Assembly (NCBI RefSeq): GCF_057098645.1
Contig: NZ_CM169472.1
Reading direction: 5' to 3' (one strand)
DNA: 64,000 nucleotides
Shown: positions 33,865 to 62,739 of the stretch, in pieces
Position numbering within the stretch: the stretch's first letter is position 1
How the letters are laid out: each line of letters starts with the position of its first letter
Made by a program: the position numbers and the translations under genes
Notes under the pieces: model-generated
Database searches by the model: none
What the model was told of the DNA's origin: nothing
What the model saw: the letters and a program-made list of their open reading frames with translations, nothing else

Positions 33865-33990
33865 ACGCTTTTCCTTGTGGATCTCAACTCGCCAGCACCT
33901 ATCTTACATGCCGGTCCGTATCAGAGATACTTTTTGAGTGGCTTTGCCGGTGATTAAAAATCAAGGAGGGTGTAACGACAAGTTGCAGGC

Positions 33991-34016
33991 ACAAAAAAAC
34001 CACCCGAAGGTGGTTT
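33991..34016 (-). terminator. rho-independent terminator at the original leuZ 3-prime flank
   Basis: aaaaaaaccaccc gaa ggtggttt hairpin; left copy of the repeat. Confidence 0.6.
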
Positions 34017-34059
34017 CACGACACTGCTTATTGCTTTGATTTTATTCTTATCTTTCCCA

Positions 34060-34115
34060 TGGTACCCGGAGCGGGACTTGAACCCGCACAGCGCGAACGC
34101 CGAGGGATTTTAAAT
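34060..34115 (-). other. tRNA-Leu 3-prime fragment (integration remnant)
   Basis: tggtacccggagcgggacttgaacccgcacagcgcgaacgccgagggattttaaat equals the 3-prime part of leuZ; 5-prime part replaced by island sequence. Confidence 0.85.
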
Positions 34116-36952: not shown

Positions 36953-37708
36953 CTACATATCAGCCAACAACATCCCAGCCATGCCATCCAGCCGTTTCTT
37001 GACCTTTTCCCACCCAGGCATAACCTGCCCCATCAGGCGGTAAAACTCTTCACTGTGGTTGTGCTCAGCAACATGGCATAACTCATGTAGCAAAACATAA
37101 TCGATACATTCTGAGGATGCCTTAACCAGCCATGGATTCAGGGTCAGACAGCCTTTTGCTGAACAGTTGCCCCATTGCGTTTGCATCGCCCGCAGACGTA
37201 TCGGAGGACGCTCACTGACCCAAAGGGTCTGCGGAATCAGTAAATCAAGCCTGCGCTGAAAAACATCTCTGGCACGTTCCCGATACCATTCAGCCAGCAA
37301 GGCTTTAATCTTTTCTGCCGATTTGTGTCTGACAGTCACTTCCAGACGCCCACGCAACATTTTCACTCGTTGCGGCACAGTAGCGTCTTCTGTCACTTTC
37401 AACTGATATTGCTTACCGAGATAATAATGGCTTTCTCCGCTGACATACTGACGCGGAACAATGTGTGTCTGTTGCTCCCTGAAATCACGCAGTTGCTGGT
37501 ATATCCAGCGCCCACGTTTTTTCAGCGCAGACAATACCTCGTGCTCCGGTGTTTCAGGCGGTACAGAGGCCACAACCCGGCAGTCCGGATAAACCTTGAT
37601 GAGCACCCTGCCCTTTACGACCTGACGCGGAACACACTGTACGACGATGACCTCATCACCATAGACAATGCGTAACGCTTTCATTGATGGCGATTCTTTT
37701 TCACTCAT
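36953..37708 (-). CDS. DUF45/YgjP-like zinc metallohydrolase
   Basis: 251-aa ORF with HELCHVAEHNHSEEF (HExxH...NHS); 4-nt overlap with hsdR stop. Confidence 0.6.
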   Translation of the reverse strand: MSEKESPSMKALRIVYGDEVIVVQCVPRQVVKGRVLIKVYPDCRVVASVPPETPEHEVLSALKKRGRWIYQQLRDFREQQTHIVPRQYVSGESHYYLGKQYQLKVTEDATVPQRVKMLRGRLEVTVRHKSAEKIKALLAEWYRERARDVFQRRLDLLIPQTLWVSERPPIRLRAMQTQWGNCSAKGCLTLNPWLVKASSECIDYVLLHELCHVAEHNHSEEFYRLMGQVMPGWEKVKKRLDGMAGMLLADM

Positions 37709-40700
37709 GATTTCATCAAACCAACGCGCAGTATCTGGATGATGGTTTCCACAATACGGTTAACCTGATTCATTCCGGCACCAATTTCCCGGCAGGCCGT
37801 AAACAGCAGTGGTAGCAGACTTGTCTTAACGACTTTCTCAATGTCCTGGGGGTTCAGGGAGTTTTCTGCCACCGCTTTGACGATAATGTTGTCCACGTCA
37901 AAAGCCAGCTTCGTCCACTTATCCTGCACTTGAACGTCTTTTACCACAAAAACCTCAGGTAGCTCTTTTTTAAATACACCGTAATATGCCTGAGCATGCT
38001 TGTTTACCGCCAAAGCATCCGGGATATCACTGAGCTTACGGGCTTTAACCTGTTCTTCAAACTCACGGAATAAGAGGTACTGCTTAAGTGGATGGTCGAA
38101 CAGTTTTTCAGCCTCTTCGATTGCCATACGCAGGAGTCTGGAAAAGGCCTCCTGAGCATACGGATCATCACGCAGCTCCTGCTCAATCATCTTCGTCACA
38201 CGGGTTTTAATGATGTCGGTTTCATTGCGGGTTTTATTGTTATCCCACTCTTCGGGTTTTTCGCTCTTGCCCATTTTACCGACTTCATACACGCCATCCG
38301 GTTCACGAACCTCAACGCCGGTAACATGCTTATCCAGCAATTTTTTCACCTGCTCAGCGTAGTCGTCATAATTGACCTGCTCTCCACTTACCTGCATCGC
38401 CCACTGGCGAAGGCTGGACATCTGTTTTACGGTTTCTTTATAGAGATTTCGGTCTTGTTCCGTAAAGCTCTTGTCGGTGAAGAAGGTAGCGGACTGCAGT
38501 GCCACTTTCAGGCATCCGGCAAAGGCCGTTAACGCCTCGAAGAAATCATCACGGGTTTTCTGATGGATATCGACCATCTCTCCGTCACGTTCTTCCATTT
38601 TAGGCACCAGTACTGCACGTAACTGCTCAGTATCATTTTTGTTTTTAACACCGGCAAATATGGCCCACAACTGGTTATACAGATGCGGCAGACGTTTATA
38701 TTCAGAGCTCATGGCGCTGTACAGCCCGTCAATATCCTTGATGTCGTATCCTCCCTGGGTTCGGGAGGCGAGATCCTGATATTTGCCGATAGTCGTGTCC
38801 AGTTCAGCCAGAATGCCGCGATAATCAATCAGCAGGCCAAACTTTTTCAGTGGATGCAGACGGTTTACCCTTGCAATCGCCTGGATAAGGTTGTGGGACT
38901 TAAGCGGCTTGTCGATATACAGCACGGTATTCTTCGGTTCATCAAATCCGGTGAGCAGTTTATCAACGACGATCAGTAATTTGAGCTTATCATCAGTATC
39001 GAAACGACTGATGATATTGCGGGTATACACAGACTCATCCTGCATGCCGACGTTATCTTTCCACCATTTCGTCACTTCCGGCAGTTTGCTTTCATCCACC
39101 TCAGTATTCCCTTCCCGGGTATCCGGCGGGCTGATAACTACAGCTGACTCAAACAACCCGGCTTCATCAAGATACTTTTTATATTTGATGGCGGAAATCT
39201 TGCTGTCGCAGGCAAGTTGGCCTTTCAGCCCCTCATCAATATTCTTCGAGAAGTGTGTGGCGATATCGAGTGCGATCAGCCGGATGCGGTCATCTGCACT
39301 GTAGACCTCACCTTTACGGGCATATTTACGTTTAAGGTCGGCTTTTTGCGCTTCGCTTAACCCATCGGTAATACGGTCAAACCAGGCATCTATTGCCCGA
39401 TCGTTAACCTCAAGGTCGGGAATACGTTCTTCATACAGCAAAGGTGTAACGGCTTTATCTTCTACCGCTCGCTGCATGGTATAAGCGTGGACAATCGGCC
39501 CGAATTTATTGGTGGTCTTATCTTCTTTTAGCAATGGCGTACCGGTGAATGCCACAAAGGCGGCGTTCGGCAGTGCCAGTTTCATTCGCACATGGTTCTC
39601 ACCCCCCTGGCTGCGGTGTCCTTCATCAATCAGAACGATGATGTCGGGGCTGGTATTGACGCATTCAGGCAATTTTGTCGCTGAGTTAAATTTCTGGATA
39701 AGGGTAAAGATTATACGTTCTTTACCAGAGCCAATCTGCTGTGCCAGCTTCTGACCTGAGGTCGCCATCGCTTTGGCCTTATCATCCTTCCCTGCCAGTT
39801 CGCCACCAGAGACAAAAGTGCCGCTGAGCTGCCCTTCAAGGTCCACGCGGTCCGTCACCACCACAATACGACACTGCTTCAGGCTGTCATGAAGGATCAG
39901 CGCCTTGCTGAGGAATACCATGGTGTAAGATTTACCTGACCTCGTGGTATGCCAGATCACCCCACCTTCCCTGCCCCCGTCTGGTCTGCGGGTACTGATG
40001 CGTTCCAGCAGTCTTTTTATCCCGAACACCTGCTGATAGCGGGCAACAATTTTTCCGGTTTTTTTATCAAACAGGGTGAAGAAGCGGGTCATCTCCAGCA
40101 GACGTTCCGGTGAAAGCAGACTGATGAGCAGCTTATCCTGCCCGCTGACTGCCAGTTCCCCCCCATCGATTAACTGTTGATACCATTTGAGATCGACTGA
40201 AGGACGATGATCAAACAACGCATGAATTTGTTCAGTCGATAACTGATGGTTGCGCAGCGCATACATCTGCGGATCGGTAATATCTTCTTCGCGCCATGCC
40301 GCCCAGAATTTCATTGGCGTATGGCATGTACCGTAGCGCCCGTCATGACCGTTAATCGAAAGTAATAACTGGCTGTAGACAAACAGCTGCGGGATTTCAT
40401 CGTTGAACTGGTTGCGGATACTCTGGGATATCCCCTCGTCAATGGTTGGCCCTTTCTTGCCATGACCAGCCGGGCTTTTCGCTTCAATAACAGCCAGCGG
40501 GATACCATTAACAAAGCAGACAATATCCGGTCTGCGGGTTTCAACACCGCCTGACCGCAATACCGTAAATTCTTCAGTAAAATGGAACTGGTTATTTTCC
40601 GGATGTTCCCAGTCGATCAGCGCAATGGTGGGGTTGACCTTCTTGCCATCGACAAATTCGGTGACGGCGATACCGTAGAGCAGATGGTTATACATCCGTT

Positions 40701-40989
40701 CATTGGCTTTGAGCAGCCCTTCATTCAGCGCCGGAGAACAGACCTGTGATATCAGGTTATCCAGTGCTTTTTCCGATAACTGGCAGTTTTTGCCACCCGC
40801 CATAAAGGAACGCTTCGACAGCTCTTCACGCAGAACCGGACGCAGCACCACCTCATCCTGTTTATAGCCCCGGTAATCCATAATCTGTTTCGGAGATAAA
40901 AACGTCCAGCCGAGGCTGGTCAGTAACGTCAGTGCCGGGATTTTGGCGCTGTATTCTTCCTGGAATTTAGGTTGGTAGTGCTTATCCAC
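37705..40989 (-). CDS. hsdR: type I restriction enzyme R subunit
   Basis: 1094-aa ORF; N-terminal PD-(D/E)xK-like IEAK motif, SF2 helicase motifs including DEGHRS. Confidence 0.85.
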   Translation of the reverse strand: MDKHYQPKFQEEYSAKIPALTLLTSLGWTFLSPKQIMDYRGYKQDEVVLRPVLREELSKRSFMAGGKNCQLSEKALDNLISQVCSPALNEGLLKANERMYNHLLYGIAVTEFVDGKKVNPTIALIDWEHPENNQFHFTEEFTVLRSGGVETRRPDIVCFVNGIPLAVIEAKSPAGHGKKGPTIDEGISQSIRNQFNDEIPQLFVYSQLLLSINGHDGRYGTCHTPMKFWAAWREEDITDPQMYALRNHQLSTEQIHALFDHRPSVDLKWYQQLIDGGELAVSGQDKLLISLLSPERLLEMTRFFTLFDKKTGKIVARYQQVFGIKRLLERISTRRPDGGREGGVIWHTTRSGKSYTMVFLSKALILHDSLKQCRIVVVTDRVDLEGQLSGTFVSGGELAGKDDKAKAMATSGQKLAQQIGSGKERIIFTLIQKFNSATKLPECVNTSPDIIVLIDEGHRSQGGENHVRMKLALPNAAFVAFTGTPLLKEDKTTNKFGPIVHAYTMQRAVEDKAVTPLLYEERIPDLEVNDRAIDAWFDRITDGLSEAQKADLKRKYARKGEVYSADDRIRLIALDIATHFSKNIDEGLKGQLACDSKISAIKYKKYLDEAGLFESAVVISPPDTREGNTEVDESKLPEVTKWWKDNVGMQDESVYTRNIISRFDTDDKLKLLIVVDKLLTGFDEPKNTVLYIDKPLKSHNLIQAIARVNRLHPLKKFGLLIDYRGILAELDTTIGKYQDLASRTQGGYDIKDIDGLYSAMSSEYKRLPHLYNQLWAIFAGVKNKNDTEQLRAVLVPKMEERDGEMVDIHQKTRDDFFEALTAFAGCLKVALQSATFFTDKSFTEQDRNLYKETVKQMSSLRQWAMQVSGEQVNYDDYAEQVKKLLDKHVTGVEVREPDGVYEVGKMGKSEKPEEWDNNKTRNETDIIKTRVTKMIEQELRDDPYAQEAFSRLLRMAIEEAEKLFDHPLKQYLLFREFEEQVKARKLSDIPDALAVNKHAQAYYGVFKKELPEVFVVKDVQVQDKWTKLAFDVDNIIVKAVAENSLNPQDIEKVVKTSLLPLLFTACREIGAGMNQVNRIVETIIQILRVGLMKS

Positions 40990-41058
40990 CCGGTAATCCT
41001 TCTTGGCTAAGAGGTGAAACTGTATGTCCTTACGGACATACTCAAAATGAACGAAGAC

Positions 41059-42843
41059 TTATGATGAAAAGAACGGCGAGTCCCGATAAAGGCGATTGTA
41101 CTTGACCTGTTCTGTTTCGCCCTTGTTTACATTACCAAATTTCTCCTGATGCGTCGTACAGCAGGAACCACAGGATGCACAAATAAATCGTCCTTCTGAA
41201 CATTTTTCATGCAAATCCCTGGCGTCAATTATTTCGCTGCATTTGTAACCAATACAGTGATTAATGTAATGCCCGATACCAAACTGTTCGCACGAATGAC
41301 TGGCACATTTAAAGACGGTCAGGCGATACGCGGCCTGGAAAGGTTTTTTCACAAATCCTTTCGACTTTGTATCCCAGACGCTGACTTCCACACGAGCATA
41401 TTTCATATCTGGAACCATCAGCACCCCACAACTTCGGCAATGCAAGCGGGAATGTAATTCTCTGATACGATTGAAATACCCAGCCAGTTTAATTGGGAAA
41501 TCCCGCTTAGAAGGTTCGCCTGCAATCAGATAGGTCATGCCATAGTGGGCAAGCCAGTCATAAATAGTGAAGTCGATGTAATCCCGACTGAGGTCGGGTA
41601 GTACCTGCGGATCATGGCAGATTTTCGAACGACAAAGGAATTTTTTCTCTATCGTTCCGTCAGGTTGTTTTGCATTCCAGTGAAATGCCTCACAGGATAA
41701 TTTTAAATTCCGGGAACGAATTTTCAATGAGCTACACTGTGGGAACAATTTGAAAACAGAAGGATGGCTTACCGGGATTTTACCCGACAACACTCCCTGC
41801 CATATCTCATGCAGAATAATACTCAGAACGGACTGTTCATCGTTACGCCCAATCAGCGGTAACAATTTACTCAGAATAAAGTATTCAGGGTCAGAAGAAA
41901 TTTCAGTATTCGACTCAATATCATTAACAAAACTGAAATCTTTCCTGAACATCTTCTGTTTAATCAAATACTTATTGACAAAAGGACTAATCACGGAATG
42001 TTTATAAAATTGCTCTCTCGATGAGAATTTCTGCTGATAGGCATCACGGACAAATGGTTGTATATCCATTTTATTTTTCGTGAAACTACGTCGAACAAAA
42101 TTCTCTATATCATCATGCCGATGTTCAAGAATCCGCTCGCTGCTTATACAATCGTAAAATGCCAGGTAGAGAATAGCACTTATAGATATATGGCTGAGTA
42201 ATTCATTGATGATGTCCGATGTTGAAGCCCCCTGGCAATCCGTAGCCGCAGAACACCTTTTCACCCAAACAGCGAACTGATCAATGTTATTATCGATAAA
42301 TGACGAAGGCATGACTGCAGGAGATATTTGTTGTGCGGTCAAATCATCAAAATTCTTATCAGAGGCGAAAAGTGCAAACTGGTTATCGTAGTTACGTGAT
42401 TTTAAAAATAGCGGCAAGACTTTTGTAGCAGCTATATCACTGGTAACTAACCGAATTATAGCCCTTTCGCCAAAGGACTGAGTGAGAAAATTAATAACGC
42501 AGTCACGATAACGCCAACGAGCGAAATCAACGCCCTCCTCAATAATAGCCCGGAGATATTCAATAAGGAGCTCAGCCGTCTCCTCATCTGTTTTATCAAG
42601 AATGTGAACATTAAAAGCCGTAGGCTTACCATTTTTACCTGTACCTTCCCTGAACAGCACCGGTGCATTGTCTGCGGGTGTATAGTTCCGGCTTATCTCA
42701 TTCTTATGAAAAAACAGCTCATTACCATTCTCTGATAAGAGAAAGCCAAAGTTATTCTCCCGATCCGTTTTGCTGTTGTAGCCTCCGAACCAGAGAACAT
42801 TTCCCATGTACCACCGGGAACGATCCAGATTGTTCACTGCCAT
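41059..42843 (-). CDS. protein of unknown function: N-terminal cold-shock-like domain, C-terminal Cys/His-rich putative zinc-ribbon region
   Basis: Start chosen at MAVNNLDR with RBS GAAGGGGG 7 nt upstream (594 aa); WFGGYNSKTDRENNFGFL resembles the CSD KWFN..KGFGFI core; C-terminal clusters CRSCG, CASHSC, CASCGSCC. Confidence 0.55.
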   Translation of the reverse strand: MAVNNLDRSRWYMGNVLWFGGYNSKTDRENNFGFLLSENGNELFFHKNEISRNYTPADNAPVLFREGTGKNGKPTAFNVHILDKTDEETAELLIEYLRAIIEEGVDFARWRYRDCVINFLTQSFGERAIIRLVTSDIAATKVLPLFLKSRNYDNQFALFASDKNFDDLTAQQISPAVMPSSFIDNNIDQFAVWVKRCSAATDCQGASTSDIINELLSHISISAILYLAFYDCISSERILEHRHDDIENFVRRSFTKNKMDIQPFVRDAYQQKFSSREQFYKHSVISPFVNKYLIKQKMFRKDFSFVNDIESNTEISSDPEYFILSKLLPLIGRNDEQSVLSIILHEIWQGVLSGKIPVSHPSVFKLFPQCSSLKIRSRNLKLSCEAFHWNAKQPDGTIEKKFLCRSKICHDPQVLPDLSRDYIDFTIYDWLAHYGMTYLIAGEPSKRDFPIKLAGYFNRIRELHSRLHCRSCGVLMVPDMKYARVEVSVWDTKSKGFVKKPFQAAYRLTVFKCASHSCEQFGIGHYINHCIGYKCSEIIDARDLHEKCSEGRFICASCGSCCTTHQEKFGNVNKGETEQVKYNRLYRDSPFFSS

Positions 42844-42865
42844 GAGCAAGCCCCCTTCCGCTTTG

Positions 42866-43549
42866 TCAGTGCAGGCAGCACTTTTTAAATTTTTTACCAC
42901 TGCCACACTGACACGGGTCATTACGACCGGGCAGTTTTTCTGCCCCCTTCACGGGAACAGGCCGGGATGATGCCTCTGACATTCTCACCGACAACCAGTG
43001 CTGGTAAAGCGCCAGTGCCGCAGGCTGAATGAGAGTAATACTCTGTTCAAATTGAACAGGTGACATTTTCTCAACCACTGGGAAGTTCTTTTCAATACCA
43101 TGAAGGGCTATCGCCTCCAGCGAGGGACGTAAGGCCTCTGGCAAGGCTGACCAGTCATCCAGAGACCGGCCTTTCATATACCCGAAACACCACTCTTCGA
43201 CGATGGTATATGTCTTCCCCTTCACCTCACGTCCATTGAAAATCGGTTCAAACTGTTCAGGGGCCTCATACAGGCAGCCAGCGATATCGTTCATATGCTG
43301 AAAACACAGCCCCACAAAACGCGTCATCTCTTTTTCAGTGGTCCAGCGAGGGTGGTAATCACCTCGCCCCCAGATAGCACTGAGCCAGGTATTAGGGGAA
43401 ATCGTATTCGGGCCAGAGACAATCGCCGTCAGAAAGCCATCCAGCTCAGAGAAACAGAGCACAGAGTCATCATTGCCGTATTTCATCAACACCTCTTCCA
43501 GCCAGTCGATTTCCCGGTCAATCAGCGGCCCGCTTTTCGTCAGTTTCAT
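42866..43549 (-). CDS. YecA-like UPF0149 protein with SEC-C motif (paralogue of chromosomal yecA)
   Basis: 227-aa ORF colinear with YecA at roughly 60 percent identity by eye, ends [24 protein letters not shown] overlap with hsdS stop; stop 22 nt before next gene. Confidence 0.7.
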   Translation of the reverse strand: MKLTKSGPLIDREIDWLEEVLMKYGNDDSVLCFSELDGFLTAIVSGPNTISPNTWLSAIWGRGDYHPRWTTEKEMTRFVGLCFQHMNDIAGCLYEAPEQFEPIFNGREVKGKTYTIVEEWCFGYMKGRSLDDWSALPEALRPSLEAIALHGIEKNFPVVEKMSPVQFEQSITLIQPAALALYQHWLSVRMSEASSRPVPVKGAEKLPGRNDPCQCGSGKKFKKCCLH

Positions 43550-44188
43550 TCGGCAACCGCCTCATCGACCTTAACACGACGTTTGCCAGTCAGTAGCTGT
43601 TGCATCAGGGCTTTTTTCTCGTCTTTCAGGCAGGCGAGTTTTTTCTCCAGCGTGGAGATTTCAGCGTCGGCAGCGGAAAGGACGGCGGCGATTTTTTGTT
43701 GTTCTTTGATATCTAATGGCAACCTAAAGTCTTTCTCTTTAAGTTCTCGCATATGTCTGCTGTAACCTAAATTCGGAATATCTGTATTTGAAAGAAGATA
43801 GTATCCAAGTTTTGGTTCAAGTATTTTGCTAGTTTTTATTACTTGCGTTCCATCAGCACCGGGACAAAACACAAACTCAATCCATTTGACGCATCTTGTA
43901 TGATCGCCAAAAACAATCACAGGCACGTCCGAATAAACCTCTAAATTATTACAGTACCCAGCAATTCGACTTTGCCCTTGATCGATTATAGGGATGGAAC
44001 CTGACTGTAAATAATCGGAAGATTTGACTTGCGCCGATTTTTTATTTGCAACAATGAAAGCATTATCAAACGTTAAATATACCCACTCCCCATTAAACCT
44101 CCCCCCATTCTCATCCAGCAAGCGTTTTTGTCCGGTAAGCAATTGCTGCATCAGGGCTTTTTTCTGTTGCTGGCTGTTGGTGAGAAGC

Positions 44189-45245
44189 GGCTTTGTTGAA
44201 TAAATCAGATTTCGGGTAAGTCTCCCCCGTAGCGGGTTGTGTTTTCAGGCAATACGCACGCTTTCAGGCATACCTGCTTTCGTCATTTTGTTCAGCGCTC
44301 GTACCAGGGCCATAGCCTCCGCAACCTGACCATCGTAGTCACGCAGCGTCAGTGAACCCCCGAACAGCTGTTTTACCCGGTACATCGCCGTTTCCGCTAT
44401 CGAGCGACGGTTGTAATCTGTTGTCCATTTCCACCGCGCATTACTCCCGGTCATTCGCTGATTAGCCACTGCACGGTTACGGTCTGCATATTCACCGGGC
44501 CAGTAGCCCGCACCTTTTCGGGGAGGGATAAGCGCGCTGATTTTCTTACGCCGCAGTTCATCGTGACATAGCCGGGTATCGTAAGCGCCATCGGCGGCGG
44601 CTGACCTGATTTTCCGGTGGGTTTGCCGGATTAACCCGGGGAAGGCCTCTGAGTCCGTAACGTTGTTCAGCGACAGGTCTGCACAGATGATTTCATGTGT
44701 TTTACTGTCAACGGCGAGATGCAGCTTACGCCAGATACGGCGGCGTTCCTGGCCATGCTTTTTGACTTTCCACTCGCCTTCACCGAAGACCTTCAGCCCG
44801 GTGGAATCAATCACCAGATGTGCGATTTCACCCCGGGTGGGCGTTTTGAAACTGACATTAACCGACTTTGCCCGCCTGCTGACACAGCTGTAATCCGGGC
44901 AGCGTAGCGGAACGTTCATCAGAGAAAAAATGGAATCAATAAAGCCCTGCGCAGCGCGCAGGGTCAGCCTGAATACGCGTTTAATGACCAGCACAGTCGT
45001 GATGGCAAGGTCAGAATAGCGCTGAGGTCTGCCTCGTGAAGAAGGTGTTGCTGACTCATACCAGGCCTGAATAGCTTCATCATCCAGCCAGAAAGTTATG
45101 GAGCCACGGTTGATGAGGGCTTTATTGTAGGTGGGCCAGTTGGTGATTTTGAACTTTTGCTTTGCCACGGAACGGTCTGCGTTGTCGGGAAGATGCGTGA
45201 TCTGATCCTTCAACTCAGCAAAAGTTCGATTTATTCAACAAAGCC
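44189..45245 (-). mobile_element. IS903-like element (IS5 family), copy 1, 1057 bp
   Basis: Terminal inverted repeats GGCTTTGTTGAATAAATC; 9-bp target duplication GTGAGAAGC at 44180-44188 and 45246-45254. Confidence 0.9.
44245..45213 (-). CDS. IS903-like transposase
   Basis: 322-aa ORF; recognised by eye as IS903/IS102-type transposase. Confidence 0.85.
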   Translation of the reverse strand: MKDQITHLPDNADRSVAKQKFKITNWPTYNKALINRGSITFWLDDEAIQAWYESATPSSRGRPQRYSDLAITTVLVIKRVFRLTLRAAQGFIDSIFSLMNVPLRCPDYSCVSRRAKSVNVSFKTPTRGEIAHLVIDSTGLKVFGEGEWKVKKHGQERRRIWRKLHLAVDSKTHEIICADLSLNNVTDSEAFPGLIRQTHRKIRSAAADGAYDTRLCHDELRRKKISALIPPRKGAGYWPGEYADRNRAVANQRMTGSNARWKWTTDYNRRSIAETAMYRVKQLFGGSLTLRDYDGQVAEAMALVRALNKMTKAGMPESVRIA

Positions 45246-45815
45246 GTGAGAAGCTTTTCCGTCACCGAAATCGCCTCATCCCAGGTTGACAGAATTTTAA
45301 CGATTCTCTTTTGTTCAGACAGTGGGGGGATATTAAATGGCCACTTAAACCAACTATCTAACTTAAAAATCATTTTCTCTATGTGCACACCAATGCTAGA
45401 GTGGAAGCAGGTTTGCTGGAAATATAGAGACTCCGATAGAAATTCCATATAAGGAAGATAAAAACCGGACTTCCCTGTAAGCACACAATATTCATTCGAT
45501 ACAATTGAGCCAGAAAGTTCTTTAGGTACAAGACCGCAAGCACCGTGCACAATTTGTCGTTTTGATATGAGAAAGTCGCCTTCTTTAATATAGAATTGAC
45601 TTTTTACGGAGATATCTTTTCCTTTAAGATGCTCACGTCTTATTACGCCACCTCTGGAGCGCTTTACTGTAACTAAGTCATACTCTTGATTATCTTGTAT
45701 ATATGCCTTTCTTGCCTCTATATTTAAGCACTTTTCTAATGATAACTTTTGCCATCCTGTAGGTAGCATTCCAAGGATCGGTTTTCCAGCTTTAACGCTC
45801 ACTGGGTAAAGCGAA

Positions 45816-47339
45816 TCACGAGCCATAACCCAACTCCTTCAAATACCCTGCCATCTCAACTTCCAGCTTCGCCAGTTCCACCTTCAGTTGCTCACGCTCT
45901 GCTCGCACCGCCACCAGGTCAATCTCATCCTCTTCTTCAAAGGTATCGACATAGCGCGGAATATTGAGGTTGTAATCGTTGTCCTGAATTTCCTTCAGGC
46001 TGGCAAGATAGGCGTATTTCTCGACGTTATCGCCATCACGGTAGGTCTTGACGATTTTCTTAATGTTTTCTTCGCTAAGCTGGTTCTGGTTTTTACCTGC
46101 CTTGAATTCACGGCTGGCATCGATAAACAGCACCTTGTCATCAACTTTCTACTTTTTGAAAATCAGAATCGCAGCCGGAATCCCCGTACCGTAGAACAGT
46201 TTTTCCGGCAGACCAATTACCGCATCCAGCAAATTTTCGTCGATCAGTTTCTGGCGAATTTTACCTTCGCTGGAGCCACGGAAAAGCACACCGTGTGGCA
46301 CAACTACGCCCATACGGCCAGTTCCCGGTTTCAGGGTTTCGATCATATGCGAGATAAAAGCGTAATCTCCTTTAGTCTTCGGCGGTACACCGCGACGAAA
46401 ACGGCCAAACTTATCGTTCTCGGCCTCGTCATGGCCCCACTTATCGAGGCTGAACGGTGGGTTAGCGGTCACGATATCAAACAGCATCAGGTCGCCATTT
46501 TTATCGAGCAGCTTCGGGTTACGAATGGTATCGCCCCACTCGATTTTATGGTTGTCTTCCCCGTGCAGGAACATATTCATTTTCGCCAGCGACCACGTAG
46601 AACCGATCGCTTCCTGACCGAACAAGGCATAGTTACGACTATCATGCCCGGAGACAATTTTACGCCCACACTTCATCAATAATGAACCGGAACCACAGGC
46701 TGGATCGCAGATGGTATCACCCGGTTGCGGATCGAGCAGTTCTGCAATCAGGTCCGAAACTTCCGGCGGGGTATAGAACTCCCCGGCTTTCTGCCCACCG
46801 CTGGCGGCAAAGTTTTTGATCAGGTATTCGTAAGCATTGCCGATAACGTCCAGCGTACCGACACGACTCGGCTTCAGGTTGAGATCTTCACCGGCGAAGT
46901 CTTCCAGTAGCTGACGCAGTATGGTGTTTTTCTGTTTTTCTTCGCCAAGACGATCGGTGTTAAACGAAATATCCTGGAACACGCTTTTCCCGGCATCTTT
47001 CAGTTTGGTTCCGTTGGCTTCTTCGATTGCATGCAGAGCCTGATCGATACGCTCACCGTTACCCAGCTCATGGCGGCGTTCGTACAGCGCATAAAAGCTG
47101 GCACTTTTTGGCAGTACAAAACGCTCGTTGGCCATCATCGCTTCAATCAGTTCCGGCGCATCGCCATACTGTTCTTTGTATTCGTCATAGTGATCCTGCC
47201 AGACATCTGAAATGTACTTGAGGAACAGCATGGTAAGGATAAAGTCTTTATAGGTATCAGCACTGATGGTGCCACGGAACGTATCACACGCGGCCCACAG
47301 GGCTTTGTTGATCGTGTCCTGACTGATTTTGTCGTTCAT
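45816..47339 (-). pseudogene. hsdM: type I R-M methyltransferase HsdM with in-frame amber codon at 46149-46151
   Basis: 396-codon ORF with N6-adenine MTase motifs (DPACGSG, NPPF) stops at ...AAILIFKK TAG, then continues in frame KVDDKVLFIDAS... for 105 more codons; overlaps hsdS start. Confidence 0.8.
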
Positions 47340-47714
47340 GAATCATCCTGGTCTGAAGAAAAAGCTAGCGATGCAGGGCTTTGCATCTTAAAAATTGCGG
47401 TAAATGATACCGTAAGATGCCTCCCCTGACACGCCAATATCGCAGCATTCAGGTTTGCATCATCCCCGTAATATCGACATGAGACAGACTGACACAACCT
47501 GGCTCGTCACTCGCTAAAAACCAATTATCTTAGTAAGATAGCATCCATATTAGCCATGGTGTAAAACTGCCGTTGGGGTAATGATGATCCATATATCACC
47601 CATTCTGGTGTGTGAAGCTGACATCATCCATAATCGGCAACGTTGATGCCCTTTGATAGTAATGATGACCGTCAATGTGATTCCCCTGCTGACTGGAGGT
47701 CTCCGGATAGAATG

Positions 47715-48878
47715 AGTATTGCCAACTGCGCTATCGGCCCACTTTATGATGAGCAAATAAAAAAAACACTTATGTATGCTGACCATAAATTCAAGCGGCT
47801 AATGAATACACGAATGTCGTTACTCGAACATTTATCACCCCACTATGACTTATCTTCCATGTTCAGCTATGAGTTGGAGGGAAGAGTTTTTCGGATTAAA
47901 TTGATCAAGCCTGAGATTAAATTATCTCGCCAGCAGTTGATCTTCTCCTCACTCTTTTTAGAGCAAGATTTTCTAAAAGAATATAAAAAACACATCTCAA
48001 ATACTCTACAAAAAACAATCAAACAGTGCATTAAAAAATACAAACAAAAAATCAAAATCGAGCCTTCTATTTTAGATTACATATCAGCATCACCCCGCAA
48101 TACGTCGAGTTATGTATTACATGAGATAGTTTCTCAATGTGAACATTGCGATGAAATTCGCAATATTAAAAATGATATATTGCTTGATGAACTAACGTTG
48201 AATGGCCGGATCACTAACATTTCAAAATACATTAAAAATAGTCAAGATAAAATCGTCGAACATATAGAGTTCTGCACTCATAAACTTGTCAATATAAGTC
48301 GTAAGAATCGTCACATTTTCAACAGCACCACAATACCTGGTAGAAAACCTAACATCACTGGTGTTTTACTTTGCCTTTCGGAATTGATAAGCAACCTGCA
48401 TATTTACCCAACTGAAATTAATAATATAAGCAATGCCATAATATTAAGCATTGTATACTCTGTACTTCAACATCTTCAATCTGGAAGAGAAACAGAAAAA
48501 ACCAAAACCTCTCCAGCACTGAATTTCATCCCCACCATCATCGCACCTCATGTTTTCTACCTGGCGAAACGCGAAAAATCCTCTCAATATAAATACATTG
48601 AAAAAGAATATCTTCTCGGCCAGTTACTTATATTTTTGATGTATAAAACAGTTTACTACTCGATTCATAGCATCAGGGTAAGCCGTAAGCATTTCTATAA
48701 CGATATAAAACCAAAATTAATGACACTAAAAAAAGAAAGCTTATTAAGCACCAATTTCATGAAAAATCGAAGAGAGATTAGTGGTGAAGTCTTTGGTGAT
48801 GTTGGTAGTATTGAGGCTGATTTTCGAGAAATCAGCACATTGATTCATCGGCGAAAGGCTCTGTTTATTTCCTTTTAA
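47715..48878 (+). CDS. hypothetical protein, AT-rich, Lys/Ile/Asn-rich
   Basis: Long ORF in strongly AT-rich DNA; start chosen at MSIANCAIG; no recognisable motifs. Confidence 0.4.
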   Translation, partial: SIANCAIGPLYDEQIKKTLMYADHKFKRLMNTRMSLLEHLSPHYDLSSMFSYELEGRVFRIKLIKPEIKLSRQQLIFSSLFLEQDFLKEYKKHISNTLQKTIKQCIKKYKQKIKIEPSILDYISASPRNTSSYVLHEIVSQCEHCDEIRNIKNDILLDELTLNGRITNISKYIKNSQDKIVEHIEFCTHKLVNISRKNRHIFNSTTIPGRKPNITGVLLCLSELISNLHIYPTEINNISNAIILSIVYSVLQHLQSGRETEKTKTSPALNFIPTIIAPHVFYLAKREKSSQYKYIEKEYLLGQLLIFLMYKTVYYSIHSIRVSRKHFYNDIKPKLMTLKKESLLSTNFMKNRREISGEVFGDVGSIEADFREISTLIHRRKALFISF

Positions 48879-50126: not shown

Positions 50127-50271
50127 TTTCTTAATATAATGGCGACATGGAATTGTGTTGCCATTATATCCGAATCAGAATTTTTCACCTGATGAACTGT
50201 GAAAACTGAGACTGGCAGACAGTAATCTCGCACCGTATTTTTTCTGTGTTATTTTACAGGAGAAATACGAT

Positions 50272-51400
50272 GCCCATTCTGGATCTGCGTTTCAGCAACA
50301 AATCACTTCACCAACTTCCCCATCCCCTCACGGGCTGTCAGGAATACCGTGATATTCACTGCCAAAACCTGCGTGCTCTGGTGTATCCCAATCGGATCAC
50401 GCTGGCCTTTCGTGCCACTATAAACAATCAGCGTATATATGAACCCCTGGGTCAGTTCCCTCAGCTCTGCGTTGAGGATGCCCGTCAGCATGTGATGAAA
50501 CTGCTTGCTGATAAAAATCGTCTTGCGGTTCAGTCCCGTCGATTCACTGTGGAACAGGCCATCAATGACCTGTGGCTACCGGATTTGCAGTTGTATAAAA
50601 AGAGTCCTCAGTCAGAGTTGTCAAAACTCAACCTCTACGTTCGCCCGTTCTGGGGCAAGCGGCAACTTCGCGACATCACGGCAGGAGAACTAGAACAATA
50701 TGCTGCTGGCTTACGGGAAAAATTACGTCCGTCAACAGTAAACCGTATCCTCGCAATATTGTCCAAAATATGCTCTCTGGCAGTACGTGCTGGATGGATC
50801 ACGCATTCCCCGATGTCACATGTCCGCTATCTGAAAGAAAATAACATTCGCTATCGCACACTATCAGCGACAGAAATCCCGCGCTTTATTGACGCGGCAA
50901 CAGCGCTGCAAACACCGGCAGCTGATTCTATATTGCTTGCTCTTTATACGGGGATGCGTATTGGTGAGGTATGTACCCTGAAATGGGAGTACTGGCACCT
51001 GGATATGCATCAACTCATACTGCCTGATACAAAGTCCGGACACCCTTTCACCTGCCCACTTGCACCTCCAGCCATTGCAGTTGTCCAGTGCCAGCAGGAC
51101 CTGATGCTCAGCAAAACTTACATTTTTCCGCGACTAACCGACAATGCCCGCCCTCTGGCATATCCGCGTGCAACCTTTGCCCGTATTTGCCGGGATGCCG
51201 ACATTGATAACCTGCGGATGCATGACCTGCGCCGTACCTTTGCCACCCGGGTACTACAGGCGACCGGGGATATTGCAATCGCTTCCCATCTGCTAAATCA
51301 CCATTCACTCACGGCGACCCGTCGCTACGCTTTTCACAATGCAGCGACATCACACGCAGTGGTTTCTCAGGTCATTGAAAGTTATGACACGAAAAAATGA
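50272..51400 (+). CDS. tyrosine-type site-specific integrase
   Basis: RBS AGGAG then ATG; catalytic signature R (YTGMRIGE), HDLRRT, HH, RYAFH with Tyr. Confidence 0.75.
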
Positions 51401-51608: not shown

Positions 51609-51786
51609 GAACACGGAAAATAACGCTAATAATGCACTGAACATTCTTCCCGAATCAGCAAGCACAGCTGTAGACAACGATGAAAAATATCTGTCCTTTG
51701 CATTAGTTCTCGCTATCACGATTATGGGCAACTGAACCGCCCCGGGAATCCTGGAGACTAAACTTCCTGAGAAAGAGGTAAACAGG

Positions 51787-52113
51787 ATGACTAAAAATAC
51801 TCGTTTTTCCCCTGAAGTCCGTCAACGGGCAGTCCGTATGGTTCTGGAAAGTCAGGGCGAATATGACTCACAATGGGCGACAATTTGTTCCATTGCTCCA
51901 AAGATTGGCTGTACGCCGGAGACTCTGCGTGTCTGGGTTCGCCAGCATGAGCGGGATACCGGGGGCGGTGATGGAGGGCTCACCACCGCTGAACGTCAGC
52001 GTCTGAAAGAGCTGGAGCGTGAAAATCGTGAACTGCGCCGCAGTAACGATATCCTTCGCCAGGCTTCCGCTTATTTTGCGAAGGCGGAGTTCGACCGCCT
52101 CTGGAAAAAATGA
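51787..52113 (+). CDS. IS629 OrfA (transposase N-terminal HTH part)
   Basis: 108-aa [22 protein letters not shown]... Confidence 0.85.
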
Positions 52114-53000
52114 TGCCACTGCTGGATAAGCTGCGTGAGCAGTACGGGGTCGGACCGCTATGCAGCGAACTGCATATTGCCCCGTCAACGTATTACCACT
52201 GTCAGCAACAGCGACATCATCCGGATAAACGCAGTGCCCGTGCGCAGCGCGATGACTGGCTGAAGAAAGAGATACAGCGCGTATACGATGAAAATCACAA
52301 GGTATACGGTGTGCGTAAAGTCTGGCGTCAGTTGTTACGGGAAGGTATCAGAGTGGCCAGATGCACTGTGGCACGTCTCATGGCGGTTATGGGACTTGCC
52401 GGTGTTCTCCGGGGTAAAAAGGTCCGTACGACCATCAGCCGGAAAGCCGTTGCCGCAGGCGACCGCGTAAACCGTCAGTTCGTGGCAGAACGACCTGACC
52501 AGCTGTGGGTGGCTGATTTTACTTACGTCAGCACATGGCAGGGCTTCGTCTATGTGGCGTTCATCATTGATGTGTTTGCCGGATACATTGTGGGGTGGCG
52601 GGTCTCATCGTCCATGGAGACGACATTCGTGCTGGATGCACTGGAGCAGGCGTTATGGGCCCGTCGACCGTCCGGCACGGTCCATCACAGTGATAAAGGT
52701 TCTCAGTATGTATCGCTGGCCTACACACAGCGGCTTAAGGAAGCCGGATTACTGGCATCAACAGGAAGTACAGGCGACTCGTATGACAACGCGATGGCGG
52801 AGAGCATCAATGGTCTTTACAAAGCGGAGGTAATACACCGTAAGAGCTGGAAAAACCGTGCAGAAGTGGAACTGGCCACACTCACGTGGGTGGACTGGTA
52901 TAACAATCGACGATTGCTGGAAAGGCTGGGCCATACTCCTCCGGCAGAAGCAGAAAAAGCTTATTATGCTTCCATCGGAAACGATGATCTGGCAGCCTGA
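52110..53000 (+). CDS. IS629 OrfB (transposase catalytic part, DDE)
   Basis: 296-aa ORF overlapping orfA. Confidence 0.85.
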
Positions 53001-53662
53001 GTTCACAGATAAAACACTCTCCAGGAAACCCGGGGCGGTTCAAACTTAGTAAAGCTCATCGGCACAGATGGCTTCATACTTTATACCTACACCCTGCAGG
53101 ACACGGCTACTGCTCGTGCTGTTTTTAATGAATTAGCCAGGCGTCTCAAAAATTTCAATCGTCAGGAGGAGGTCTACACCACCGATTCCCTCACCTTTCG
53201 AATGAAATACATTTACGGTGTTACCCTGTTCGAACATGATAGTAAATCTATCCTTAACCTTTTTGATAAGAAGGGTTATCCAGTATTGAGTGAATCAGGA
53301 GAACCCGGTTCTCTTGATGATATGTATCTTGACATTCAAGCCCGATTACATGGCGGCTACGCCTCAAAAAAGTTTCTTCATTTACATGAACATTGTCTGT
53401 TATCTGCACACGTTACCCCGTCTGTGGAAAAGACGCAACGTGGTATCCTGATTAAAGCAGGCAGGAAACTCGTTTCCTTTATCTATGCAGATAATGAATC
53501 TCGCAAAAATGATATTTTCAAAGCTGTAGTAGACGTCATTAAATCCTGATTCATTATGCCGGGTGCGTATTCCGCTCTATTCGATCACGGATTGGCATCG
53601 AAGTCCGATCAGCGATTCGCATCCATTCGATCAACCGGGAACTTAACTTTTTCTACCGCTTT

Positions 53663-54421
53663 TTAACGCGTTTTTTCGCTGCTTTCCACTACCGGGGGAT
53701 TTTTCCTCAGTGACTCTCCCTGAAGGACCACTCGGTGTGAGTTATGTACCAGTCTGTCCAGGATGGCATCTGCTGTTGTTGGGTTCTCCATCAGACCATG
53801 CCATTTATCTACCGGGAACTGGCTTACCACTATCGTGCTGCTTTGTCCGTAACGATCCTCTATGAGCTCCAGAAGGTCATTACACTGGGCGTTACTTAAC
53901 TGTTCCAGCCCCAGATCGTCCAGGATTAGAACCTGTATTTTTTGCAACTGTTTCAGATATTTCAGCCAGCTGCCATCAACACGTCCCTGAGCCAGTTGTT
54001 CCAGTAATCGCCCGGTTCTACAGTACCGGACGCTGTGTTTCTGTCGACATGCCTGTTCGCCCAGCGCATTGGCTATCCAGCTCTTGCCACATCCTGTCGG
54101 ACCGGTTATCAGCAGGTTTTTCCTGTGGGTTATGTAGTGGCCGTTCAGCAGTTCTCTCATCTGTTCAGCCCGCAGACCTCTTGAGGCCGGATAGCGCAGC
54201 CCTTCCGGTGTTGCCTGGTATTTCAGGCCGGCATTTTTTCTCAACCGTGCCACACGGCTGTTTTCCCTGCTCAGAAGCTCGTCATCAACCAGCAGCGTCA
54301 GCCTTTCCTCGAACGACAGTTCGTCGTAGGTCTGAGGCGTTTCCCGCTGCCGTATCAGGCTCCCGGCCATCGCCGGGAGTTTCAGTTGGGTCAGTTTGTT
54401 TAACAGGTTATCACTCATACT
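53663..54421 (-). CDS. istB: IS21-family IstB ATP-binding helper protein
   Basis: Start at MSDNLLNKL; Walker A GPTGCGKS. Confidence 0.75.
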   Translation of the reverse strand, partial: SMSDNLLNKLTQLKLPAMAGSLIRQRETPQTYDELSFEERLTLLVDDELLSRENSRVARLRKNAGLKYQATPEGLRYPASRGLRAEQMRELLNGHYITHRKNLLITGPTGCGKSWIANALGEQACRQKHSVRYCRTGRLLEQLAQGRVDGSWLKYLKQLQKIQVLILDDLGLEQLSNAQCNDLLELIEDRYGQSSTIVVSQFPVDKWHGLMENPTTADAILDRLVHNSHRVVLQGESLRKNPPVVESSEKTR

Positions 54422-54434
54422 GTTGTTCCTTCTG

Positions 54435-55970: not shown

Positions 55971-56594
55971 AGTGCTCCTGGATTTTCTCTTTCTGGACAT
56001 TGACGTCTCCACTGGTTTAAACACGGCAATGGAGACTGTGGTGAAAAGAGTTAATTCCCGGAGTGACTGGCAGGATGCCAATCAATGATCGGAAGCATGC
56101 CAAATCGTGATCGATTGTGATGCCAAACTGTGATCGGAGATGGATGCCAAATCATGATCGATTCGAATGCCAAACTGCGATCGATTCAGATGCCATTTTG
56201 CAGCCGGGGGGGACGAACTCCCGGCATTTTTTCGGAGTTAACTATGAGCAATAATTTGCAGGACATCCTCGCTGCCGCATCGGGGTATCAGTCCGTGACT
56301 TCAGAGCCAGCGCTCAATCTTAAAAGACCTAAAACGCTTGATGATTATCCTGTGATACCACCTGCATCAAAAAAAGTATCTGTTATTTCAAGTGACCTGA
56401 CACTCCATATCGGTTTTGATACCGAATATGTTTTCAATCCTGAAACACAACAGAATGATATTCTGTCATATCAGAGTTATGTTGTCTTACCCGATAATAC
56501 AGGTATATCGAACATTATCTATCCACCTGACTCACAGAAAAAATCCCGGCTGTCTTTTAAGAACTTTCTCTGTCAAACGATTATGGATTTGCCC

Positions 56595-62708: not shown

Positions 62709-62739
62709 CCCTTGTGTCTACCGATTCCACCATCCGGGC
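62653..62739 (-). tRNA. leuZ: tRNA-Leu
   Basis: 87-nt sequence, reverse complement GCCCGGATGGTGGAATCGGTAGACACAAGGGATTTAAAATCCC...GGGTACCA. Confidence 0.9.

What the first reader, a model, noticed from the sequence alone, without database searches (positions are those of the whole stretch)
43546..47339. Type I R-M system inactivated twice (IS903 in hsdS, amber in hsdM) while hsdR is intact
hsdS is cleanly split by IS903 with a 9-bp TSD and joins in frame when the IS is removed. hsdM carries an in-frame TAG at 46149-46151 with 105 in-frame codons after it. hsdR (1094 aa) shows no lesion. Two independent hits on the modification/specificity genes suggest relaxed or negative selection on the system.
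Basis: seen in the sequence. Interest (0 to 1): 0.55.

Follow-up and report, generated by a model that had tools for sequence, protein, structure and literature searches.

The report
Decayed type I restriction system, pipolin island
This is an ordinary dead restriction-modification gene cluster in an E. coli defence island; all three enzyme genes are damaged, not two, and two of the three lesions are old ones shared with the O145:H28 food-poisoning lineage.

Summary
A 1057-bp IS903B (44189-45245, 9-bp duplication GCTTCTCAC) splits hsdS. Removing it restores a 404-codon gene that differs by 7 nt from an intact E. coli orthologue. hsdM codon 397 is TAG where orthologues have CAG (Gln).

"hsdR is intact" holds only at ORF level. 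hsdR carries G350R in helicase motif I (Walker A, TGSGKS to TRSGKS). That glycine is present in 139 of 141 diverse homologues, so HsdR is probably ATPase-dead.

The lesions differ in age. The amber and G350R occur together in exactly the same 20 complete E. coli genomes, all O145 (O145:H28/NM) where a serotype is given. RefSeq already annotates hsdM there as having an "internal stop". The IS903B insertion is found in none of 5,426 complete genomes, so it is recent and strain-specific.

Sister O145:H28 strains decayed differently. One type has hsdM cut by an IS3-family element and hsdR split by IS600. Another has a 9-kb deletion.

The locus lies in an IS-riddled pipolin at tRNA-Leu (leuZ). The best reading is neutral decay of an already inactive (r-m-) system. 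This is ordinary and largely already annotated, so interest is low.

The parts
45816..47339 (-). hsdM pseudogene (507 codons; N6-adenine methyltransferase subunit)
   Evidence: Full-length matches to PADLOC MTase_I models and to solved type I M subunits: 7VRU E=1e-95, EcoR124II M E=8e-69. 99.5% identical to the annotated intact hsdM of ECCHD184.
46149..46151 (-). amber codon TAG = Gln397Stop (ancestral CAG, C-to-T transition)
   Evidence: The same allele is in 20 O145 (O145:H28/NM) genomes. RefSeq annotates 'internal stop' in RM13514.
45255..45826 (-). hsdS 5' part (TRD1 plus the first half of the central helix D1; codons 1-191). The target-site copy 45246-45254 continues it to codon ~194.
   Evidence: The reconstructed protein matches PADLOC Specificity_I PDLC03156 over its full length, E=2e-178.
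45246..45254 (-). target-site duplication copy 1 (GCTTCTCAC)
44189..45245 (-). IS903B (1057 bp, 18-nt terminal inverted repeats, one 307-aa transposase gene at 44245-45168 with a GTG start)
   Evidence: Transposase matches NF033579 IS5-family, E=5e-107. 100% identical to copies annotated IS903B in many E. coli replicons.
44180..44188 (-). target-site duplication copy 2 (GCTTCTCAC)
43546..44179 (-). hsdS 3' part (second half of D1, TRD2, D2). It carries a strain-specific V220G change at 44102.
42866..43549 (-). embedded YecA-family (UPF0149/SEC-C motif) gene, start overlapping the hsdS stop; ORF intact
   Evidence: NF007704 E=5e-105. PADLOC candidate defence family PDC-S12 E=9e-98. Protein identical to the L002/L003 orthologues.
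41059..42921 (-). embedded 620-aa cold-shock-domain protein gene; ORF intact
   Evidence: Pfam CSD, residues 53-106, E=3e-4. RefSeq name 'cold shock domain-containing protein' in orthologous loci. Only synonymous differences from L002.
37705..40989 (-). hsdR (1094 codons, ORF uninterrupted)
   Evidence: TIGR00348 hsdR 455 bits against a cut-off of 284.55. PADLOC REase_I E=0. Same length as annotated orthologues.
39940..39942 (-). hsdR codon 350, AGG (Arg) where orthologues have GGG (Gly): substitution in helicase motif I / Walker A (HTTGSGKS to HTTRSGKS)
   Evidence: Aligns to G of HTTGSGKT in EcoR124I HsdR. G in 139/141 aligned homologue representatives. The allele is confined to the same 20 O145 genomes.
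36953..37708 (-). M48-family metallopeptidase gene overlapping the hsdR stop; ORF intact
   Evidence: RefSeq annotation of identical-length orthologues. Only synonymous differences.

Best explanation
The region is a type I restriction-modification operon (hsdM-hsdS-yecA-like-CSD gene-hsdR-M48 peptidase, all on the minus strand). It is carried as cargo of a pipolin-type genomic island at tRNA-Leu (leuZ), in an E. coli belonging to or very close to the O145:H28 EHEC lineage. The system is dead and has been decaying stepwise.

Step 1, in an ancestor shared with O145:H28:
- hsdM acquired CAG to TAG at codon 397. This removes the last 111 residues, including the conserved VLFIDAS segment and the C-terminal helical tail.
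- hsdR acquired G350R in the Walker A/motif I P-loop.

Either change alone should abolish restriction. HsdR acts only when docked on an M2S1 core through HsdM, and it needs ATP-driven translocation to cleave. The hsdM stop also abolishes modification.

Step 2, recently and only in this strain: an active IS903B inserted into the central coiled-coil helix (D1) of hsdS, making a 9-bp duplication. A second identical copy sits 15 kb away. hsdS also picked up V220G.

Because the first knock-out already gave an r-m- phenotype, the later hits are best read as neutral pseudogene decay, not as independent evidence of selection.

Shown: the lesions, their ancestral states, their distribution among genomes, and the alternative decay routes in sister strains.

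Inferred: that Q397* and G350R are each null, the order of those two changes, and the neutrality of later events.
For: - Lesions and ancestral states.
- The TAG allele and the R350 allele are each present in exactly 20 of 5,426 complete E. coli genomes, and it is the same 20 strains. All are O145 (O145:H28/NM) where a serotype is given.
- The window is 99.98-100% identical to O145:H28 RM13514 across the operon. It is 99.97% identical to RM12761 across 10.7 kb that includes core genes.
- RefSeq annotates RM13514 hsdM as 'internal stop'.
- No complete genome carries the hsdS::IS903B junction.
- Sister strains decayed along other routes. In RM13514, hsdM is truncated by an IS3-family element and hsdR is split by IS600. 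RM12761 lacks window 38736-47744.
- G350 is G in 139/141 homologue representatives. One exception is the self cluster and the other has a degenerate motif. It aligns with the TGSGKT motif of EcoR124I HsdR.
- A motif I/Walker A mutant of EcoKI HsdR (K477R) cannot hydrolyse ATP, translocate or cleave (PMC4231737).
- R contacts the M2S core via M, and neither S nor M binds DNA alone (PMC3874165).
- Substitution pattern: 6 nonsynonymous/nonsense and 0 synonymous single-site changes in hsdM/S/R, against 0 and 3 in the accessory genes. My own Fisher exact calculation gives p = 1/84, about 0.012.
- The published SMRT methylome of RM13514 shows only GATC and CTGCAG-type adenine methylation and no bipartite type I motif (PMC3893438).
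Against: - No phenotype or methylome data exist for the source strain.
- The effect of G350R is inferred from conservation and from a different residue (the Lys) of the same motif, not measured.
- The RM13514 methylome does not isolate the effect of the amber, because hsdM there is also 5'-truncated.
- The substitution counts are tiny. They also required excluding a 10-site synonymous cluster (hsdM codons 67-82), which I interpret as a recombination tract because it matches the ECCHD184 allele.
- The order of Q397* and G350R cannot be resolved, because no intermediate genome was found.
- The source genome itself is not in the collections searched, so its lineage is inferred from near-identity.
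Confidence: 0.88

Rival explanations
1. Adaptive loss rather than neutral decay. Inactivating this restriction barrier was positively selected in the EHEC O145:H28 ancestor, for example to allow uptake of Stx phages, plasmids and other mobile DNA. The repeated independent destruction of the locus would then reflect continuing selection against it.
For: The locus has been hit in at least four further independent ways within one clonal lineage: IS903B here, the IS3-family truncation and the IS600 insertion in RM13514, and the 9-kb deletion in RM12761. All single-site changes in the RM genes are nonsynonymous or nonsense.
Against: Once hsdM is null the system is r-m-, so nothing remains for selection to remove. 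The later hits are what neutral decay predicts in an island that carries five IS copies in about 28 kb. A 6:0 nonsynonymous-to-synonymous count is compatible with neutrality, since roughly three quarters of random coding changes are nonsynonymous. No test here separates positive from relaxed selection.
Confidence: 0.12
2. Residual or altered activity. Low-level read-through of the UAG, together with the N-terminal half-HsdS (195 native residues plus 8 IS-encoded) acting as a homodimer, yields a weak methyltransferase with a new palindromic specificity. Near-cognate Gln insertion at the UAG would restore the wild-type residue. Truncated S subunits behave this way in type IC EcoDXXI::Tn5, EcoR124I(delta50) and NgoAV.
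For: Transposon-truncated or deleted S subunits that form functional homodimers are documented (PMC3874165). D1 and D2 of this HsdS are similar in sequence, as in type IC. The ancestral codon at the stop is Gln.
Against: The insertion lies inside D1 and removes its conserved second half (QKKALMQQLLTG). The documented functional truncations retain D1. Spontaneous UAG read-through is normally well below the level needed for stoichiometric M2S1 (general knowledge, not tested). HsdR carries G350R, so restriction would still fail. RM13514, whose hsdS is intact, shows no type I motif in its methylome.
Confidence: 0.03
3. Artefact. The TAG is a sequencing or assembly error, or HsdM is naturally made as two polypeptides in this family.
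For: A 105-codon ORF with a GTG start follows 5 codons after the stop.
Against: The identical TAG is found in 20 independently sequenced complete genomes. The other 328 genomes that match the 81-bp query lack the exact allele, and the three orthologues I checked directly have CAG and a single 507-codon ORF. The stop falls inside a segment that aligns continuously with solved single-chain M subunits.
Confidence: 0.01

Closest known systems
Annotated decayed type I R-M locus of E. coli O145:H28 RM13514 / RM12581 (RefSeq NZ_CP006027, NZ_CP007136)
   Same: It is the same island and the same operon, 99.98-100% identical. It has the same hsdM Q397* ('internal stop' in RefSeq) and the same hsdR G350R, E982K and E1031D.
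   Different: In RM13514, hsdM is additionally 5'-truncated by an IS3-family element, hsdR is split by IS600, and hsdS is intact. Here hsdM is full length, the hsdR ORF is uninterrupted, and hsdS carries IS903B plus V220G.
EcoprrI (prrA-D), a type IC R-M system with the anticodon nuclease gene prrC embedded in the operon
   Same: The gene order is hsdM-hsdS-(embedded non-RM gene)-hsdR. The closest solved R subunit is type IC EcoR124I, and EcoR124II M matches HsdM over its full length. The concept of an accessory defence gene inside a type I operon is described in PMC3874165.
   Different: The embedded genes here are a YecA-family/SEC-C protein and a cold-shock-domain protein, not PrrC. Similarity to EcoR124I HsdR is limited to the motor region (E=1e-31). 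No functional link between the embedded genes and the RM enzyme is shown.
EcoDXXI hsdS::Tn5, EcoR124I HsdS(delta50) and NgoAV: truncated S subunits
   Same: A transposable element or truncation interrupts hsdS between the two target-recognition domains (PMC3874165).
   Different: Those truncations retain the whole D1 helix and stay active as homodimers with palindromic specificity. Here D1 is cut in half, and HsdM and probably HsdR are also defective.
E. coli pipolins (piPolB-encoding defence islands at tRNA-Leu between pgsA and yecA)
   Same: The integration site (leuZ at 62653-62739), flanking direct repeats, tyrosine recombinase, a family-B-like polymerase gene, and Type I RM plus PDC-S12 cargo all match (PMC11551731).
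   Different: This copy is heavily degraded. The polymerase gene is split by IS2, and four more IS copies are present.

Membership tests
Type I restriction-modification system (HsdM/HsdS/HsdR) | HsdR with an N-terminal nuclease and an SF2 motor domain | tested here: met
   TIGR00348 scores 455.3 bits against a cut-off of 284.55. PADLOC REase_I PDLC03041 matches 4-1092, E=0. PD-(D/E)xK-like D155, E169 and K171 and the DEGH box at 455 are present.
Type I restriction-modification system (HsdM/HsdS/HsdR) | HsdM gamma-class N6-adenine methyltransferase (DPACGSG and NPPF motifs) with a C-terminal region | tested here: met
   The motifs are visible in the translation.
Type I restriction-modification system (HsdM/HsdS/HsdR) | HsdS with two target-recognition domains separated by two conserved helices | tested here: met
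   The reconstructed 404-aa protein matches PADLOC Specificity_I PDLC03156 over 20-404, E=2e-178. It is collinear with annotated intact orthologues.
Type I restriction-modification system (HsdM/HsdS/HsdR) | All three subunit genes intact, i.e. a potentially functional system | tested here: not met
   hsdM Q397*, hsdS::IS903B and hsdR G350R at a near-invariant Walker A glycine. It is a decayed member.
Type I restriction-modification system (HsdM/HsdS/HsdR) | Bipartite m6A recognition motif, ATP-dependent restriction | not testable with these tools
   The only indirect evidence is the published methylome of the sister strain RM13514, which shows no type I motif (PMC3893438).
Type IC family (EcoR124I / EcoDXXI / EcoprrI) | Sequence relatedness and subunit complementation with EcoR124I; gene order hsdM-hsdS-hsdR | tested here: inconclusive
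   The gene order is met. HsdM matches EcoR124II M at E=8e-69 over the full length, but other M subunits are closer (7VRU, 1e-95). HsdR matches EcoR124I only over about 220 motor residues, E=1e-31. Complementation is not testable. It may belong to an unnamed family.
IS903 group of the IS5 family (IS903B) | 1057 bp, 18-bp terminal inverted repeats, a single DDE transposase of about 307 aa, 9-bp target duplication | tested here: met
   Length, inverted repeats and target duplication. Transposase NF033579 E=5e-107. 100% identity to copies annotated IS903B.
Pipolin (piPolB-encoding integrative element) | Primer-independent family-B DNA polymerase gene | tested here: inconclusive
   The 731-aa ORF at 57940-60135 gives only a weak DNA_pol_B_2 hit, E=0.002. 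The orthologous gene is annotated 'DNA polymerase' or 'DNA polymerase type-B family protein' in RefSeq. Here the gene is interrupted by IS2.
Pipolin (piPolB-encoding integrative element) | Integration at tRNA-Leu between pgsA and yecA in E. coli, flanking direct repeats, tyrosine recombinase | tested here: met
   tRNA-Leu(taa) at 62653-62739. 133-bp repeats at 33983-34115 and 62576-62708, inferred because each cross-aligns to the other's counterpart in the reference loci. Tyrosine recombinase at 50246-51400. Site as described in PMC11551731.

The most novel reading that the evidence does not exclude
The operon may persist for its embedded accessory genes rather than for restriction. These genes are the YecA-family/PDC-S12 protein, the 620-aa cold-shock-domain protein and the M48 peptidase. 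They may form a defence or stress module that remains under purifying selection after hsdM/S/R became dispensable, analogous to PrrC in EcoprrI but able to act without an active RM enzyme. The uninterrupted but ATPase-dead HsdR might be kept as a scaffold. The only support is the substitution contrast (0 nonsynonymous and 3 synonymous changes in the accessory genes, against 6 and 0 in hsdM/S/R) and the PADLOC candidate-defence hit. The RM12761 lineage deleted two of these genes, and the IS903B insertion is probably polar on them. Both points argue against this reading.
Probability: 0.08. Interest if true: 0.45.

Novelty: already known. Interest (0 to 1): 0.14.

Why it matters
It matters little beyond bookkeeping. 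Decayed type I systems are common; REBASE keeps a category for them (PMC3874165). The amber in this hsdM is already flagged in RefSeq annotations of O145:H28 genomes.

Three modest points are useful:
1. A correction: an uninterrupted hsdR ORF is not an intact hsdR, because a Walker A G350R hides in it.
2. A clean example of one clonal lineage dismantling the same dead locus along three routes (IS903B; IS3-family element plus IS600; 9-kb deletion). These lesions could serve as sub-lineage markers for O145:H28/ST32 typing.
3. The hsdS::IS903B junction and a second identical IS903B copy show that this IS was recently active in the source strain.

Tried and rejected
- I searched for the hsdS::IS903B junction in 5,426 complete E. 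coli genomes and found none. The source genome could therefore not be identified directly.
- A 101-bp query around the TAG could not separate 0 from 1 mismatch by identity band. I repeated it with 81 bp.
- The promoter/terminator consensus scan of 40900-47800 gave 8 promoter-like sites against 10.0 expected, and terminator-like sites only mildly above expectation (13 against 6.8). I did not use it as evidence for operon structure or IS polarity.
- NCBIfam and PADLOC found nothing for the 620-aa protein, the M48 protein, or the divergently transcribed 411-aa ORF at 47643-48878. Pfam gave only a weak CSD hit for the 620-aa protein.
- The first literature searches for an O145:H28 methylome failed on syntax or terms before succeeded.
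- PMC2602864 did not contain the EcoR124I Walker A mutant I was looking for.
- I considered and rejected: sequencing error, a naturally split HsdM, a functional half-HsdS, and Pyl/Sec-type recoding of TAG (no basis in E. coli).
- I did not assign the system to families IA-IE, because the sequence evidence is inconclusive.


Full report
**1. What is at the coordinates**

All relevant genes lie on the minus strand.

| Gene | Window coordinates | Notes |
|---|---|---|
| hsdM | 45816-47339 | 507 codons |
| hsdS 5' part | 45246-45826 | start overlaps the hsdM stop |
| IS element | 44189-45245 | 1057 bp |
| hsdS 3' part | 43546-44188 | |
| YecA-family gene | 42866-43549 | start overlaps the hsdS stop |
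| cold-shock-domain protein gene | 41059-42921 | 620 aa |
| hsdR | 37705-40989 | 1094 codons |
| M48 metallopeptidase gene | 36953-37708 | |

The family assignments are firm:
- HsdR exceeds the TIGR00348 cut-off (455 against 284.55 bits) and matches a PADLOC REase_I model end to end.
- The repaired HsdM and the reconstructed HsdS match PADLOC MTase_I and Specificity_I models.
- HsdM aligns over its full length with solved type I M subunits: 7VRU 1e-95, EcoR124II M 8e-69, EcoKI M only 2e-27 and partial.
- The nearest solved R subunit is EcoR124I, but only over the motor region (1e-31).
- Gene order and the similar D1/D2 helices resemble type IC. I leave the family (IA-IE) open.

**2. The IS insertion**

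- The element is exactly 1057 bp, and its first 18 terminal nucleotides are identical inverted repeats.
- It encodes one 307-aa IS5-family transposase (NF033579, 5e-107).
- It is flanked by a perfect 9-bp duplication, GCTTCTCAC.
- It is 100% identical to copies annotated "IS5-like element IS903B" in many E. coli chromosomes and plasmids. It is therefore IS903B, not the Tn903 prototype.
- Removing it plus one duplication copy gives a 1215-nt open hsdS. This has 7 nt / 3 aa differences and no gaps against the intact hsdS of E. coli PapRG-06-5.
- The insertion point (codon ~195) lies in the middle of the central conserved helix D1. It separates ...EAISVTEKLLT from NSQQQKKALMQQLLTG....
- No complete E. 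coli genome among 5,426 carries this junction.

**3. The amber in hsdM**

- Codon 397 is TAG. Three intact orthologues (ECCHD184, PapRG-06-5, G1/2) have CAG, so the change is a C-to-T transition giving Gln397Stop.
- 110 sense codons follow before the normal TGA.
- The stop precedes the conserved VLFIDAS...NQN.LS segment and the C-terminal helical tail, which align continuously with single-chain solved M subunits.
- An 81-bp query centred on the TAG is matched at 100% by exactly 20 complete genomes, all O145 (O145:H28/NM) where a serotype is given. The other 328 matching genomes are at 98.8% or lower.
- RefSeq annotates the RM13514 copy as "internal stop".
- This excludes both sequencing error and a naturally split HsdM.

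**4. hsdR is not clean**

- The ORF is uninterrupted and has the same length as its orthologues.
- Against the closest orthologue (G1/2) it has three nonsynonymous and no synonymous differences: G350R, E982K and E1031D.
- G350R changes HTTGSGKS to HTTRSGKS. This aligns with HTTGSGKT, helicase motif I/Walker A, of EcoR124I HsdR.
- I aligned the query with 150 representatives of 50%-identity clusters (query identity 100% to 30%). The column is G in 139 of 141 sequences with a residue there.
- The two exceptions are P0001, a 633-aa protein 100% identical to the query (that is, this same allele), and one protein whose whole motif is degenerate.
- A Walker A substitution in EcoKI HsdR (K477R) abolishes ATP hydrolysis, translocation and cleavage (PMC4231737).
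- That G350R is null is an inference from conservation, not a measurement.
- Positions 982 and 1031 are variable.
- The R350 allele is matched at 100% by exactly the same 20 O145 genomes as the TAG.

**5. Lineage and order of events**

- The window is 100% identical to RM13514 over hsdM codons 70-507. It has one mismatch in 6,128 bp from hsdS to hsdR. That mismatch is hsdS V220G at 44102, specific to the window.
- It has 3 mismatches in 10,753 bp against RM12761, across core genes and the island edge.
- The source is therefore in, or very close to, the O145:H28 clone, but is not itself in the collection.
- Shared, hence older, changes: hsdM P92L and Q397*; hsdR G350R, E982K and E1031D.
- Strain-specific, hence younger, changes: IS903B in hsdS and V220G.

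Sister strains took other routes:
- In RM13514-type genomes, hsdM is cut at codon 70 by an IS3-family element and hsdR is split by IS600. hsdS is intact.
- In RM12761/RM13516, a 9,009-bp deletion with TAT/ATAT microhomology at the junction removes window 38736-47744. That takes out the promoter, hsdM, hsdS, both embedded genes and two thirds of hsdR.
- The window preserves the most ancestral architecture of the three.

**6. Selection**

I counted single-site changes where the window differs from PapRG-06-5 and G1/2 and those two agree with each other.

| Gene set | Nonsynonymous / nonsense | Synonymous |
|---|---|---|
| hsdM, hsdS, hsdR | 6 | 0 |
| CSD, M48 and YecA-like genes | 0 | 3 |

- A Fisher exact test gives p = 1/84, about 0.012 (my calculation).
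- I excluded a cluster of 10 synonymous differences in hsdM codons 67-82. It matches the ECCHD184 allele and looks like a recombination tract.
- The counts are small but fit relaxed constraint on the RM genes.
- Nothing here demonstrates selection for loss. After the first null mutation the system is r-m-, because R docks on the M2S core through M, and neither M nor S binds DNA alone (PMC3874165). Later hits are expected to be neutral.

**7. Function today**

- The best reading is no modification and no restriction.
- The published SMRT methylome of RM13514 found only GATC and CTGCAG/DTGCAG adenine methylation in a strain with an intact hsdS (PMC3893438). This fits a dead hsdM, although that copy is also 5'-truncated.
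- Transposon-truncated S subunits can work as homodimers in type IC (EcoDXXI::Tn5, EcoR124I delta50, NgoAV; PMC3874165).
- Those truncations keep D1 whole and have working M subunits. Here D1 is halved and M is truncated, so I give residual activity about 3%.

**8. Context**

- The operon sits in a roughly 28-kb island bounded by 133-bp direct repeats (33983-34115 and 62576-62708).
- The island lies at tRNA-Leu(taa) leuZ (62653-62739), between yecA and pgsA.
- It carries a tyrosine recombinase and a divergent family-B polymerase gene (weak Pfam hit; RefSeq names).
- This matches E. coli pipolins, for which Type I RM and PDC-S12 are reported as frequent cargo (PMC11551731).
- The island carries five IS copies: two identical IS903B, one 1310-bp IS3-family element, one IS21-family element, and one IS2 that splits the polymerase gene.

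**9. Verdict**

Relaxed selection is supported. It misses the hsdR Walker A lesion and the different ages of the lesions.
- The phenomenon is ordinary, and its main component is already annotated in public genomes.
- Novelty: already known. Interest: 0.14.

Noticed in passing
window 60710-61766 (+), target duplications at 60701-60709 and 61767-61775: There is a second IS903B copy, 100% identical to the one in hsdS, in inverted orientation about 15.5 kb away. It has its own 9-bp duplication, CCGTGCCGT. Both copies are absent from the O145:H28 reference loci examined, so IS903B transposed recently in this strain. No inversion between the two copies has occurred, because each keeps a matched duplication.
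   Followed up: partly
window ~33983-62708: The whole region is a pipolin-like island at tRNA-Leu(taa) leuZ (62653-62739), next to tRNA-Cys and tRNA-Gly. It has 133-bp direct repeats at 33983-34115 and 62576-62708 and a tyrosine recombinase at 50246-51400.
   Followed up: partly
window 56584-57914 (-), flanked by GATTA at 56579-56583 and 57915-57919: An IS2 (1331 bp, 5-bp duplication GATTA) interrupts the island's family-B-like DNA polymerase (piPolB-like) gene. The remaining 731-aa ORF is at 57940-60135. The orthologue in ECCHD184 is an uninterrupted 866-codon gene.
   Followed up: partly
window ~53564-56202 (-) and 51733-53042 (+): An IS21-family element (istA-like 548 aa, istB-like 332 aa) sits just upstream of the polymerase gene and is absent from RM12761. 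A 1310-bp IS3-family element is 100% identical to the copy that truncates hsdM in RM13514.
   Followed up: partly
window 42866-43549 (-) versus 33199-33864 (-): The YecA-family gene embedded in the RM operon is a 58%-identical paralogue of the core yecA gene that flanks the island 9 kb away. It matches the PADLOC candidate defence family PDC-S12 (E=9e-98).
   Followed up: partly
window 41059-42921 (-): The 620-aa protein between the yecA-like gene and hsdR has a weak N-terminal cold-shock domain and a Cys-rich C-terminus. It has no other family match in NCBIfam, PADLOC or Pfam. It is present in some orthologous operons (PapRG-06-5, G1/2, RM13514) and absent in others (ECCHD184). Its position is like that of prrC in EcoprrI.
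   Followed up: partly
window 36953-47339: Single-site changes that set the window apart from two agreeing comparators are all amino-acid-changing in hsdM/S/R (6 to 0) and all synonymous in the CSD, M48 and yecA-like genes (0 to 3). This hints that the accessory genes are still constrained while the RM genes are not. The numbers are very small.
   Followed up: partly
protein P0001, corresponding to hsdR codons 1-633: The protein library holds a 633-aa protein 100% identical to the first 633 residues of this HsdR, including R350. It could be another truncated allele of the same decaying gene or a contig-end fragment. I did not resolve which.
   Followed up: no
window 47643-48878 (+): A low-GC (32-36%) 411-aa ORF is transcribed divergently from hsdM. 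It has no match in NCBIfam or PADLOC, and it is annotated as hypothetical in all related loci.
   Followed up: no
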